A DNA stretch of 64,000 nucleotides from Haliotis rufescens. Its lineage: Eukaryota. Of this stretch, positions 44,349 to 50,506 are shown one piece after another; within the stretch, counting starts at the first letter, position 1, and every line of letters starts with the position of its first letter. The stretch spans positions 10,788,001 through 10,852,000 of the forward strand of contig NW_025964001.1 in the NCBI RefSeq assembly GCF_023055435.1, in the 5' to 3' direction. The translations under genes were made by a program, and so were the position numbers. The notes below the pieces were generated by a model. The model was not told the DNA's origin. It saw nothing but the letters and a program-made list of their open reading frames with translations, and made no database searches.

Positions 44349-47300
44349 TCACACTGGCTGACACATGATAACACATTCCATCAGTGTCTTGAAGTTATTC
44401 GAGTTGCCCTGGCAACCGCCGTAGTAGAAGTTCTCACACTGCTTTGAGCTGGTGTTGTAGTAGTACCGCATCACGAGCCCGTCGCATGGCCCCACGTCCT
44501 TGGCCAGCTCGCACACAGCTGGAAGAGGAACAACTCATCTGTACACATGCGTTGACACGTTTTGAAAAGGGAAGTGTGCAACTAACACACAACATGATGA
44601 GTAAAAGCAAACATTTCGCAAATGATGCACACGTGCATCAACCACCGTTCTTCTGGTTACGCGTACGTCTACACTGGGACATGTCATAGTGTTTTTTGTT
44701 AATTTCTTTTTTGTTTAACGCCGCACTCAGCAATATTCCAGCTTTAGGAGGGCGGTCAGAAAATAATCCAGTCTGAATCAGATAATCCAGTGATTGACAT
44801 CATGAGCATCGATCCACGCAATTGGGATACGATGACATGCATAAAACAAGTAAGCGAACCTGACCACCCGATCCCGTTAGTTGCATCTTACGACAAGCAT
44901 AGTCGCTTTTTATGGCAAGCATGGGTTGATGAAGACCTATTCTACCCCGGTTCTGCGCGGGTCTATATGCCACAGTGATGTTCACGAAAAGTGTGGTATA
45001 GAACGTCAGTCTTATATATATACTCATAAGCATATATACTGAAGGATTGTTCTAGACATATCCTTAACAGAAATGGTTAATCGCTGCGTTATCGTGGTTC
45101 ACGGACCAAGCCGCGATGAAGGTTAAAATGTTGGGCAGTCCATTTGGTGATGGTGTTGCCCGGGTTCGACTTCCCATATATGGGCACAGGTATCTCCCGT
45201 TAGTATCTCTAAAACGTTTAAGGAAGCTGATCTGATAAACGGAATCAGATTCATATATTGTCTTATTATATACTTCATTGTGAAAGGCATGTTTCAGAAG
45301 TTGAGAAAATAATACATTATTGAGAAATAACACTTGATATTTCACTGCAGTAAACATAACACTTGGACGGAACTATTGTCATACAAAAGTTACCTCTCTG
45401 CAAATTGTCTCCCTTTATCGTAAATCTCTAGCCCGTACACAAATTATTTACTTCCATTTTATGTTCGTTCCACATTGGCAAGGCAAAATAATGACAGATG
45501 GTCATTTATGGAGTTAATGTCACTTCTTGCCGTTTGTTATTCTCTTGAAAATGTTTCGTTATAAGCTATGAATTTCTCATTTAACTCGTCTATTGAGACT
45601 GTTCGTGTCGCAAGTGCCATATTGAACAGCGTGTATTCATTCGTTTCCGACAGCTATCTCGTAGATTTCAAGAAAACCTTTTAGTTGAAGTTGATTTTGT
45701 ATATAGTTATATCCAAATGTATGATAACGAATTTCTGTGACCCTAAATATTTTTGGATTACTTTTGTTTAGATTTTTTTAAATTTTGCAAACACGGAACT
45801 ACTTTTTAAGTCGTAAGTACAAGGCGTGGTGAAACGTTTCTGCGTGCTAGGTAGGGAGAATTTACATTTCAAGGTTTTACATTTGTGAAATAATTTAATT
45901 TACAATTTAAACTACACAAAAAGTATACAATAAATATCTCCTTTAGCCCCCGTCATTCGACGACAGAACATGATATTTCACTCGACAAATATCTTCTACC
46001 ACTTTTAATGGCAACAATGCAAACAAAGAAAGAACGCTATTGGCCTAGTTTGAAGTCGGGATCACGTGATTCGTGTGATGCCATGGCGACGGACCTCTGT
46101 GTGTGTCAGACACAAGATAAGGCAACAGGTCTTCTGTCTCCATGATCAAGTTCCAAAACTGCTTGAAGTCCGTGTTTGTGTTAGCGAATAAATCGACAGT
46201 TAGTGTTAGACTAAGTGTATAATTGATGTACGTGTAAAAGTGGATTTATATGTATAATACTGTTACTAAAAAGGTGTATGGGTGAGCGTGATTAGGATGT
46301 TTGGATGTGGGTAGGTATAGGTATTAGTGTAACTCTAAAACATTACAACCAAACAAATTCGCGAGACCAATCCCAATATGTATGACTATAATAGCATAAT
46401 GACATACTATAATAGACGGATCTAGAGGGGGTTCCTTTTGAAAACCAAATGTAGGATGTTGTAGGCACCCTCCCCTGCTTCAACTAGTAGATCCTTGCAC
46501 GTTTAAGGGAGGCAACTCTACACAGCGAATTGTGTCTGGGCTCTGGTTCACCCTTGTGCACATATATGTGATGAAATAATGAAAGAAAGAGAGTAGTACG
46601 AACTAGAACATCATTTATCATTTCATTATTTCCATTTATGCTTATATTGCAGGAAGACATGAAGACATTGTTCCTGTATTTTACCTGGTGAATATAACAA
46701 CGTGGATGTCTATGCTTAACTGATCGGACTGTTCTGTGACTTGGCTTAACTCTCCATGAATAACTCTCCAAGTTTAATGTCAGTGTACTTTCGTTTCAAA
46801 ATTTGATGTTTGGTTGGTTGGTTCGTTGTTTAACGCCGCACTCAGCAATATTCCAGCTATATGACGGCGGTCTGTAAATAATCGAGTCTGGACCAGACAA
46901 TCCAGTGATTAATATCATGAGCATCGATCCACGCAATTGGGATCGATGACATTCATCAACCAAGTAAGCGAGCCTGACCACCCGATCCCGCCTTTTACGA
47001 CAAGCATAGTCACCTTTTACGGCAAGCATGGGTTGCTGAAGACCTATTCTACCCCGGATCTTCACGGGCCTTCAGGGGCGGTCGGGTAGCCTAGTGGTTA
47101 AAGCGTTCGCTCGTCACGCCGAAGACCCGGGTTCGATTCCCGACATGGGTACAATGTGTGAAGCCCATTTCGGTGTCCCCCGCCGTGATATTGCTGGAAT
47201 ATTGCTAAAAGCAGCGTAAAACCATACTCCGTCAGTCAGTCATTCAGTCACGGGCCTTCAAAATTTGATATAATAAGCTGCTGATTTGCGCCATTTAACG

Positions 47301-48480
47301 TCCCTTTTGCAGCTGGTGCGATAAACCCCGACTCCTTGTCCCACAGCTCTCTTCACTTAAACGTCTAATACCACACGGTTACAGAATATTTTATAGTGTA
47401 TGTACATTACCAGCACCACGTGTGTAAAATTGCATCCCTTTGCATTGCCCGGAACCTAATATAGTTGGTTCGTAAATATGATTTATGATTTGCCGTCACC
47501 ATACGCGTGCAATCGTGACCAACTCGTGTTATTCCGGGACAAGCCGAATTGTTTGGCAGGTTACGGAAAGGGGCGAGTGGTGACGAATGCATACGCGTGC
47601 TCATGAGTTCCACAATAGTGCGTGGAAACGTCTCCGTCTTGCGTCATTTTTTTACGTTCCTGACACATTAACCCGAAACGCCATGATCTAATTGCTCTAC
47701 TGATCTAAACGACGTTAAACACATCTCACTCCTTCATTCGTCACCACTCACCCCTTTCCGTAACCTGCAAGAAGACTCGTCCCTCTATCGATGAATGTTA
47801 TGTGCGAAAATACGACAAACCAATCAGAATACGCGTATGATTTCAAGTTCTTCGTCAAAGAATCCCTCAGAAATAATTTTTGATTTTACATATGTCTTGC
47901 ATCTAAAATATACCAAAGACACAGTTAAATGTGTTCAATCATACTGTATAATTCCGCACGTCCTGATGTGCTTTAAATTGCATCTGAAATATATATAATA
48001 TATGGGGAAAATTTGTGAACCATTACGCAACGAGTTGACAATTGTTTTAGGTATGCCCGTTTGCGCTAAGACAGAACCCGGTCGCAAAAATGGCCACGAG
48101 AGGGGCACGAGTCGCTATTCGGCTTGTCCCGGAATAACACGAGTTGGTCACGAATGCTCACTCCTTCACACCCTTGTAAGAATATAGTTCACCAGCAAAC
48201 TATGGTTGTGGTAAGTTGTGGCTAAAGGGTTCAGGCTCAGTGACGACTGATTGTATGACATCAGATCCCAACTGCGTGGATCGATGATCATGATGCCAAT
48301 CACCGAATTGTCTTGTCCAGACTCGATCATATACAGACCGCCGTCATATGGCTGAAATATTGCTGAGAGGGGCGTTAAACAACAAACAAATCGTTCACTG
48401 ACCCAGCACCACCTACCGGCTGACTGGCTTTGTTGCAGGGTTGAGACCAGAAGACCGAGAACAAGTACACACACAAACAT
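44349..48480 (-). CDS. Secreted single-domain BPTI/Kunitz protein, P1 Asp (77 aa)
   Basis: Exons 48480-48417 ([28 protein letters not shown]) and 44518-44349 ([56 protein letters not shown]). AATAAA at 44321-44316. An additional microexon cannot be excluded. Confidence 0.87.
44710..44962 (-). mobile_element. SINE family A
   Basis: Match to consensus. Confidence 0.83.
46808..47069 (-). mobile_element. SINE family A
   Basis: Match; TSD TTCAAAATTTGAT split by a later family-B insertion. Confidence 0.87.
47075..47248 (+). mobile_element. SINE family B
   Basis: Match; TSD CACGGGCCTTCA. Confidence 0.88.
47513..48153. repeat. Nested inverted-repeat (foldback) element
   Basis: 37-bp IR 47513-47549 / 48117-48153 and inner 34-bp IR 47556-47589 / 47735-47768. 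Confidence 0.75.
48262..48390 (+). mobile_element. SINE family A, 3' part
   Basis: Partial match. Confidence 0.75.
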
Positions 48481-48764
48481 GGCGGCAGGCGGCAGGCGAT
48501 ATATACTTATGGCGAATACAACAGGCAATCTTATCTAAGTTACCTAGGTCAAACACTCTGTCTGTTTCCACAGTATAATTAGCCATGCTCTGTTCTGAGA
48601 TAAAAGGGCAATTGTACCACGTCTCCTGGGAACTATGAGTGCTTCCGGTTCATAGAATACCTGGTATGTTATGTGCGGGATTCGTGACGCTTCAAGTATG
48701 AATAAATAAATTGCTGGTGATTCCATGGCATTTACTTGGCTAACCAAGCAGTTAATTTTGCAGT

Positions 48765-48999: not shown

Positions 49000-49500
49000 G
49001 CGACAAACTTAAGGGAAAACTTCATTCCCTGGTCCATGGGGCATTTGTTGCAAAACATAGTGACCATAGATACAGTTACATATTTATCTTCGGATGTTCA
49101 GGACAATTTGTCAAAAATGAAAGCAGTTGCCATCAGAAATTCGCTGAGAAGGCAATATGTAAAATGCTAGACCTCCTCATAGATACCATCTATGTAAGAC
49201 ATTTAAGCAAGAAGTAAGCATCCCCATGGGCACCAATTGTGCCCCCCTTCCTGCTCATCTGTTTCTATATGAATCGGACTTTCTGCTGGGATGGGCACAG
49301 TCATCCCATAACACGTTTAACTCAAGCTTCAAGTACATCAATTTAGATCTTTGCATGAAGAATCAGAGTGATCAAACACTCTCTACCAGACTGTATGAAA
49401 GAGGGATGACTTCAACTTTCCAGTAGTCAACTTTCCCTTTGTGTTGAGCAATAGTCCAACACCTCAAACCGTTGGTGTCTACATTTCACAACTTTTTCAA
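49000..49500 (+). mobile_element. Penelope-like retroelement RT remnant
   Basis: Broken frames ICKMLDLLIDTIYV, IPMGTNCAPL..LFLYESDFL, DDFNFPVVNFPFVLSN..GVYISQL. Confidence 0.72.
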
Positions 49501-49573
49501 AACTGAAAATCATAGATAGTAAAATTCAACGTCAACATTTATTATTCCAAAATATGTCATGAGAATTCCTATT

Positions 49574-50506
49574 TTACACCGCTTGACACAAAGCAACGCA
49601 ATCGGCTAGAGTTTGAAAGTTGTTTGCGTTAGCCCGGCAACCGCCATAGTAGAAGTTCTCACACAGCCCCGTGCTGGTGTTGTAGAAGTAGCGCAGGATG
49701 AGGGCTTCACATGGACCGACCACCTTAGGTAGATGGCAGGAAGCTGTAACAAGAATGGTGGATGTATCTGTAATTTGGCAACCTCGTCTCAGAAATATTT
49801 TTTGTTGGAATACGTTGTTATTTCATGGCTTTCACTCATTTGACTTGTCAAAGAAGTTAAAAAGAGTGAAGACTTCGTTTAGCCAGAAACTGGGGTAAGT
49901 TTAGTTGTTGGGCTTTTATCGTCTTTGAACTATTTCATGTGATGAGAGGCGCTGGTGTATGCAGCCTTGTGGTCATATAGTTCATGTAAAAATGTACAGA
50001 AACATGGGTCTGAATGCTTGAGTGTGACAAAGTAGACACGATTTATGGATAACAACTTCTTTAATTACTGTAAAGGAGACGTTTCGGTATAGATCCTTAC
50101 ACCGTTGTCAAGCAATATTTTGTCGTTTGTCATCTTCTAAGTAATGACTATCAAACAATGCATGCATGTGAGTGAATCGCTGCAAAACAACTTTGTCAAT
50201 ACGCATGCGCATTCGTAAGAATTATCAATTAGGACCTAATGTTTAGAGATTTTACTGGCGCGATTTAGAGCACTAAACAACTTAGAGTATGATATATTTA
50301 AGAGTATAACTCAATTCAGACTACTATTTGAAGCACCATGAGCAATGTGCAGTTTAAAGCACCACACAACGGAGAGCATGGAGCAGTTAAAAACGTCATA
50401 CAACTTGAAGCGTGGTATACTTTAAAGCTCCCCACGACTTGGAGCATGATGCCGTATAAAGCAACGTACAGCGTTAGAGCATGGTTTGATTTAAAGCTCC
50501 TAAAAG

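What the first reader, a model, noticed from the sequence alone, without database searches (positions are those of the whole stretch)
44349..49743. Two adjacent Kunitz peptides with acidic P1 (Asp and Glu)
Seen: both domains keep all six Cys and share YNTS.....CENFYYGGC...N.NNF and C-terminal CQ.V*, so they are close paralogs. Each carries an N-T-S glycosylation sequon, and P1 is D in one and E in the other. Established: typical inhibitory Kunitz domains have basic or hydrophobic P1, and acidic P1 binds trypsin-like enzymes poorly. Inference: acidity has been retained across a duplication. Possible targets are Asp/Glu-specific serine proteases (e.g. microbial glutamyl endopeptidases), or the role is non-inhibitory (ion-channel or mineral binding).
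Basis: partly seen in the sequence, partly recalled or inferred. Interest (0 to 1): 0.75.

Follow-up and report, generated by a model that had tools for sequence, protein, structure and literature searches.

The report
Three abalone Kunitz genes, acidic tips

Summary
The two exons are the last exons of two separate single-Kunitz genes (K44, P1 Asp; K49, P1 Glu). A third paralog 5.4 kb upstream (K55, P1 Asp) was missed. All three have RefSeq Haliotis rufescens models with signal-peptide exons, and K44 splicing is seen in contigs from three organisms. The duplications are old (dS about 1 or saturated; K44/K49 dN/dS about 0.25), and the K44 and K49 P1 residues are kept in H. cracherodii.

Acidic P1 is not rare: 7 of 60 distinct Kunitz domains in this genome and 112 of 936 in a broad set. 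It is also present in domain 2 of the known abalone shell protein KCP and in a published beetle single-domain Kunitz. The sequon is common too and is absent from K55. The binding-loop scaffold is intact.

Best reading (0.45): canonical inhibitors of proteases that accept an acidic P1, probably foreign. No granzyme-B-like host enzyme was seen in 54 readable trypsin-family last exons. Mineral binding and channel block find no support. This is ordinary family diversification with an open specificity question.

The parts
44349..44518 (-). K44 Kunitz last exon (phase-1 acceptor, stop TGA); P1 Asp codon GAC at 44483-44481; N-T-S sequon; AATAAA at 44321-44316
   Evidence: RefSeq XP_046373018.1 (P0009); contigs stop at the acceptor
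48417..48480 (-). K44 signal-peptide exon (ATG in a GCCGCCATG context; donor GTAGGT)
   Evidence: predicted; equals the N-terminus of P0009; loose ends of X9, X11 and X14 map to 48418 onward
49574..49743 (-). K49 Kunitz last exon (stop TAA); P1 Glu codon GAA at 49708-49706; N-T-S sequon; AATAAA about 35 nt past the stop
   Evidence: RefSeq XP_048259323.1 (P0003) mapped
50980..51052 (-). K49 signal-peptide exon (likely start ATG at 51040)
   Evidence: P0003 mapped; the same N-terminus opens H. cracherodii P0008
53192..53227 (-). K49 upstream exon segment of the RefSeq model (GC donor); may be 5' UTR rather than coding
   Evidence: not checked with reads
55108..55283 (-).
   Evidence: RefSeq XP_048259321.1 (P0004) mapped
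55888..55969 (-). K55 signal-peptide exon (likely start ATG at 55954)
57315..57350 (-). K55 upstream exon segment of the RefSeq model; may be 5' UTR
   Evidence: not checked with reads

Best explanation
K44, K49 and K55 are three separate, tandemly duplicated genes for single-domain Kunitz peptides of about 6 kDa, predicted to be secreted, that likely act as standard-mechanism inhibitors of proteases accepting Asp or Glu in S1 (likely subtilisin-like or Glu/Asp-cleaving enzymes of microbes or food) rather than of trypsin-like enzymes. Shown: gene structure, K44 splicing, acidic P1 in all three, P1 kept in the H. cracherodii orthologs of K44 and K49. Predicted: Kunitz fold and secretion. Inferred: the acidic P1 is selected; it is one setting in the abalone's panel of P1 variants (Arg, Lys, Ser, Tyr, Asp and others); the target is not a host enzyme.
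For: The canonical scaffold is intact in all three: Gly12, Pro13, Cys14-Cys38, P1' Gly or Ala, Gly36-Gly37, Asn43. Only 48 of 112 acidic-P1 domains in the broad set pass that test, against 295 of 385 Lys/Arg domains. The AlphaFold model of K44 (pLDDT 91) matches TFPI KD2, boophilin and ShPI-1 at rmsd 0.5-0.6 A. K44/K49 dN is 0.24 against dS 0.96. Asp/Glu swaps that keep acidity recur in other lineages: KCP domain 2 has Glu in H. asinina and Asp in H. rufescens and H. rubra, and unionid mussel domain 2 has Glu or Asp. In Potamilus, two adjacent near-identical two-domain paralogs carry Glu/Glu against Arg/Leu. Precedent in another canonical family: a P1-Glu molluscan Kazal inhibits subtilisin A (Ki 1.1 uM) but not GluC or chymotrypsin (PMC12637466, section 8). 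No Arg/Lys at 226 or His at 213 was found in 54 of 55 fetched abalone trypsin-family last exons (the roles of these residues are recalled).
Against: There is no activity data, and no tissue or induction data. My paper searches listed no natural animal Kunitz shown to inhibit an Asp/Glu-specific protease or subtilisin through an acidic P1. BPTI-type domains are not known as subtilisin inhibitors (recalled). P1-Asp BPTI has the lowest association constants against four serine proteases (PMC9312475, section 4.4). Retention of class across the three paralogs also occurs at 9 of 27 variable columns. The tree does not resolve the three as a clade, although they are mutual best hits by identity. The host-protease survey is partial: 150 of 298 candidates were scored, 55 of 66 last exons fetched, residue 189 was seen in only 3 genes, and other protease clans were not checked.
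Confidence: 0.45

Rival explanations
1. Non-inhibitory or non-canonical binding modules (matrix, mucus, receptor or exosite binding). The acidic P1 disarms the trypsin site while the fold is kept for another surface.
For: The major abalone shell protein KCP carries an acidic P1 in domain 2, and its Asp-P1 peptide is detected by MS in nacre. Tick Ixolaris acts by exosite binding (PMC9865953 passages). Acidic P1 binds common serine proteases poorly.
Against: The trio are not KCP orthologs (24-28 of 51 identical, against 41-44 for loci L013/L014). No trio motif appears in 24 of 27 shell-proteome supplement files (a different species, and database-dependent). Net charge is near zero. The whole binding loop is intact.
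Confidence: 0.3
2. Weak or conditional inhibitors of ordinary enzymes: trypsin-like enzymes at low pH with P1 protonated, or cysteine cathepsins.
For: PMC9312475 section 4.4 cites acidic-P1 BPTI binding trypsin best at low pH, and a Fasciola Kunitz inhibiting cysteine proteases. P1-Asp and P1-Glu BPTI complexes with trypsin or chymotrypsin are solved (3btd, 3bte, 1t7c).
Against: These affinities are the lowest among the P1 variants. The genome already has 33 of 60 Lys/Arg domains for trypsin-like targets.
Confidence: 0.12
3. P1 is under relaxed constraint. An ancestral Lys-to-Glu or similar change was inherited by all three copies and is functionally indifferent.
For: Lys to Glu is a single transition. 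9 of 27 variable columns are equally conserved across the three. Acidic domains from other animals are not closer to the trio once the loop is masked (1 of 65 against 8 of 81), so acidic P1 arises repeatedly.
Against: Synonymous sites are near saturation while P1, normally among the most variable sites, stays acidic with three different codons. Only 3 of 27 variable columns share a non-consensus class.
Confidence: 0.08
4. Ion-channel modulators like dendrotoxins or kalicludines (the RefSeq 'actitoxin-like' names come from similarity).
For: Same fold (alpha-dendrotoxin TM 0.91-0.92). Some P1-atypical Kunitz and Kazal peptides are neuroactive (PMC3721222 and PMC12637466 passages).
Against: No Lys at the position equivalent to DTX-K Lys3 (the residue two before the first Cys is Ala, Ala or Asp). 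Net charge is -1 to 0. Abalone are not known to be venomous (own knowledge).
Confidence: 0.05

Closest known systems
BPTI/Kunitz family (Pfam PF00014, MEROPS I2), single-domain secreted members such as ShPI-1
   Same: Signal peptide plus one 51-residue six-Cys domain; same predicted fold (rmsd 0.5-0.6 A); intact binding-loop scaffold.
   Different: P1 is Asp or Glu instead of Lys, Arg or a hydrophobic residue; no activity known.
KCP_HALAI (P86733), abalone shell-matrix two-Kunitz protein
   Same: Same genus. Its domain 2 has an acidic P1 that swaps between Glu and Asp across species.
   Different: Two domains (domain 1 has Arg or Tyr), basic overall (pI 8.9), a different locus (C223 near 56.49 Mb), and only 24-28 of 51 identical to the trio. 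It is found in shell; the trio were not found in the files searched.
Blister-beetle Kun_Lyd-37798 (PMC9312475)
   Same: Published single-domain Kunitz with P1 Asp, noted as unusual and untested.
   Different: Insect; relatedness to the trio was not tested.
P1-Glu Kazal inhibitors (conkazal-M1, CrSPI domain 2; PMC12637466)
   Same: Acidic P1 on a canonical loop in a mollusc; the functional model for the best explanation (subtilisin inhibition).
   Different: Different fold; conkazal-M1 did not inhibit GluC.
Unstudied acidic-P1 Kunitz proteins of lobster (XP_071536077.1), limpet (XP_009046991.1), unionid mussels, amphioxus, frog, elapid snakes and midge
   Same: GPC[DE][AG] loop; several have a single domain and a signal peptide.
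   Different: Not detectably orthologous once the loop is masked. They were retrieved by a search biased to these words.

Membership tests
BPTI/Kunitz (PF00014, MEROPS I2) | Six Cys with C-x8-C-x15-C-x7-C-x12-C-x3-C spacing and a Pfam score above the cut-off | tested here: met
   (70-73 bits against a cut-off of 21)
BPTI/Kunitz (PF00014, MEROPS I2) | Kunitz fold (beta-hairpin plus C-terminal helix) | tested here: met
   predicted model of K44 only, pLDDT 91; Foldseek TM 0.92-0.96
Canonical (standard-mechanism) Kunitz protease inhibitors | Binding-loop scaffold: Gly12, Cys14-Cys38, small P1', Gly36-Gly37, Asn43 | tested here: met
   all three pass
Canonical (standard-mechanism) Kunitz protease inhibitors | Measured inhibition of a protease through P1 | not testable with these tools
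   needs a bench assay
Trypsin-type Kunitz inhibitors | P1 Lys or Arg | tested here: not met
   P1 is Asp, Glu, Asp
Secreted single-domain Kunitz peptides | N-terminal signal peptide spliced to one Kunitz exon ending in a stop | tested here: met
   RefSeq models mapped; K44 junction in contigs. The signal peptides were judged by hydrophobicity only; no SignalP-type program was run.
Abalone shell-matrix KCP proteins | Two tandem Kunitz domains orthologous to P86733 | tested here: not met
   KCP maps to L013/L014, not to the window
Abalone shell-matrix KCP proteins | Presence in the shell proteome | tested here: inconclusive
   no trio motif in 24 of 27 supplement files of an H. laevigata study; other species, database-dependent
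Dendrotoxin/kalicludine-type Kv blockers | N-terminal Lys (DTX-K Lys3) and a basic surface | tested here: not met
   Lys3 from a PMC3721222 passage; sequences and charge; the basic surface as a criterion is recalled

The most novel reading that the evidence does not exclude
Acidic-P1 Kunitz domains with an intact loop are a functional class that arose repeatedly (abalone, limpet, mussels, lobster, amphioxus, frog, snake, bacteria). They are natural Kunitz inhibitors of Asp/Glu-cleaving or subtilisin-like proteases, a specificity my searches found undocumented for this family. The abalone trio would be a small, testable model of it.
Probability: 0.2. Interest if true: 0.55.

Novelty: new member of a known kind. 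Interest (0 to 1): 0.28.

Why it matters
As genes they are ordinary and already annotated. The open point is general. About 12% of the Kunitz domains counted here have an acidic P1, and I found none with a shown target. Three small, expressible single-domain peptides from a farmed mollusc make that question easy to assay. If they inhibit microbial Glu/Asp-cleaving or subtilisin-like enzymes, they would add a specificity class to the Kunitz family and a candidate defence factor for abalone.

Tried and rejected
1. Alternative last exons of one gene: rejected; each Kunitz exon has its own signal exon.
2. A K49-K44 fusion, as in the H. cracherodii model XP_071080788.1 (P0008): the linker frame does not run into the K44 signal exon in this window, so it is likely a merged model. 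One search listed no such joint, but its tables were cut.
3. Deep orthology of acidic domains across molluscs and amphioxus: not supported with the loop masked. The tree of 60 domains is mostly unresolved.
4. The sequon as a special trait: rejected. It is in 10 of 66 genome domains, 8 of them non-acidic, and in 103 of 936 elsewhere (14 of 112 acidic, 48 of 385 Lys/Arg).
5. One search's 29 of 58 acidic single-domain hits is not a frequency, because the search words were taken from acidic loops.
6. The first homolog search (longer proteins) gave 2 uninformative hits. The single-sequence fold (pLDDT 64) was discarded. The ESM Atlas gave only Kunitz clusters.
7. One search was swamped by repeats.
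8. I recall that TFPI-2 KD2 and Ixolaris K1 have Glu at P1, but the passages read (PMC1937028; PMC9865953) did not confirm it, so I do not use it. The PMC9175108 passages were off-topic, and the PMC4460706 and PMC6950308 passages gave no acidic P1 case.
9. No complex prediction was run: no partner is known, and Kunitz-protease pairs would pass by likeness to solved structures.
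Full report
Observation. Six-frame scans find six Kunitz domains in the window, all on the minus strand. A third, K55 (55281-55129), also has P1 Asp but no sequon. The other three have Lys or Arg at P1. Identities are 32, 30 and 31 of 51 among the three acidic domains and 20-23 of 51 to the two basic ones compared, and each of the three has the other two as its best hits among 60 genome domains.

Gene structure. Each acidic domain is a last exon with a phase-1 acceptor, a stop codon and AATAAA. 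Database proteins named Haliotis rufescens match them exactly: XP_046373018.1 (K44, 77 aa), XP_048259323.1 (K49) and XP_048259321.1 (K55). Mapping gives signal-peptide exons at 48480-48417, 51052-50980 and 55969-55888. They are therefore three genes, each giving a mature peptide of 56-59 residues (cleavage sites estimated by eye).

Expression. In one search, contigs from 4 of 4 runs (RNA by guess only) cover the K44 exon and stop at its acceptor. In 3 of 4 (X9, X11, X14; organisms B, C, D) the loose end matches the signal exon 3.9 kb away (14 of 14 and 28 of 30 bases for the two tested), which shows splicing. No difference is listed in the P1 codon. A second X9 contig matches the K49 exon by eye.

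Evolution. K44/K49 has dN 0.24 and dS 0.96; pairs with K55 are saturated at synonymous sites (51 codons, simple Nei-Gojobori). The P1 codons are GAC, GAA and GAT. The H. cracherodii orthologs keep Glu and Asp and both sequons (49 and 47 of 51 identical). So acidity has outlasted old duplications. As a statistic it is modest: of 27 columns that vary in the family, 9 keep one class across the three and 3 share a non-consensus class, P1 among them. A maximum-likelihood tree of 60 domains leaves the three unresolved and needs 5 changes for the acidic label (few columns, bootstrap not settled).

How unusual is acidic P1? The genome search gave 85 Kunitz matches. All were read: my profile found 87 stretches, 21 without the exact six-Cys spacing were set aside, and the remaining 66 collapse to 60 distinct domains. 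Of these, 23 have Arg, 10 Lys, 6 Asp, 6 Ser, 4 Tyr and 1 Glu, so 7 of 60 are acidic. In the best 150 of 13,892 hits from the representative library (all multi-domain proteins), 112 of 936 distinct domains from 146 proteins are acidic. A word-biased search also returned many short proteins with a GPC[DE][AG] loop from lobster, limpet, mussels, amphioxus, frog, snake, midge and bacteria (118 proteins examined, 6 without a six-Cys match). With the loop masked these are no closer to the trio than non-acidic hits (1 of 65 against 8 of 81), which points to repeated origin. Within abalone, the known shell protein KCP (P86733) has Glu at P1 of domain 2, and its orthologs have Asp. In print, PMC9312475 describes a single-domain beetle Kunitz with P1 Asp (passages and section 4.4 read).

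Mechanism. All three keep the canonical scaffold, which only 48 of 112 acidic domains in the broad set do. The K44 model is a standard Kunitz fold. An intact loop with a conserved acidic P1 suggests a protease that accepts Asp or Glu in S1; this is inference. I looked for a host candidate among trypsin-family genes. There were 147 matches from 150 of 298 candidates scored; 66 cover the last exon, 55 were fetched and 54 were readable. None has Arg or Lys at 226 or His at 213. The granzyme B and V8 roles of these positions are recalled, and residue 189 was visible in only 3 intronless genes, all Asp. This weakly favours a foreign target. Against this, P1-Asp BPTI binds common serine proteases worst, and searches listed no animal Kunitz with a shown acidic-P1 target (listings only; subscription papers are not covered).

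Other roles. Mineral binding: the mature peptides have 3-5 acidic and 3-5 basic residues. None of the trio's motifs occurs in 24 of 27 supplement files of the H. laevigata shell proteome, whereas KCP's Asp-P1 peptide does (PMC6003135; passages and supplement searches; files 25-27 not searched). PMC2989941 (passages) reports only the two-domain Kunitz in shell. Channel block: no N-terminal Lys equivalent to DTX-K Lys3 (PMC3721222 passages) and no basic surface.

Earlier scan notes (unchecked AI notes): none on this locus. One on bacterial Kunitz proteins with acidic sites agrees. One reads a Glu-P1 shark LRP11 domain as disarmed, which fits my first rival.

Verdict. This is a real, correctly read feature, extended to three genes. 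They are ordinary members of the Kunitz family with a minority but precedented P1 type, already annotated. The specificity of acidic-P1 Kunitz domains remains open and is testable with these peptides. Interest 0.28.

Noticed in passing
window 50580-51040: The 3' part of the K49 signal exon, with its donor site, is repeated about five times head to tail with CA-repeat spacers just inside the intron. These could act as alternative donors.
   Followed up: no
window 44518 (K44 acceptor); run X5: One contig joins the K44 exon to a 28-base piece of a dispersed repeat (390 genome matches). In the two copies read, that piece is followed by a GT donor. No copy was found in the window or the next 30 kb. 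It may be a polymorphic insertion spliced in, or a chimeric contig.
   Followed up: partly
window 31904-38457, minus strand: Three more Kunitz domains with basic P1: K32 (Lys; candidate signal exon 34993-34918) and two Arg domains in one long Ser/Thr/Asp/Glu-rich open frame (38457-36988).
   Followed up: partly
G000 C587 and C588 (L030-L043): At least 13 near-identical Kunitz copies with P1 Ser in large tandem arrays on two contigs; possibly a recent amplification or haplotype duplicates.
   Followed up: no
L013, L014 (C223 near 56.49 Mb): Orthologs of shell protein KCP, with two gene copies whose domain 2 has P1 Asp. The H. laevigata proteome lists both Asp and Lys variants at that site.
   Followed up: partly
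window 1086-1691 and 20286-20663, plus strand: Exons of two similar glycoside hydrolase genes; the second was scanned and matches Pfam GH10.
   Followed up: partly
window 24445-25429 and 51361-52371: Two broken transposase-like elements that look like Tc1/mariner; the family name is recalled from the translations and was not scanned.
   Followed up: no
P0234-P0275, P0212 (metagenome proteins): Apparently bacterial single-Kunitz proteins with P1 Asp and a GCC instead of GGC second loop, some with a dockerin domain PF00404.
   Followed up: no
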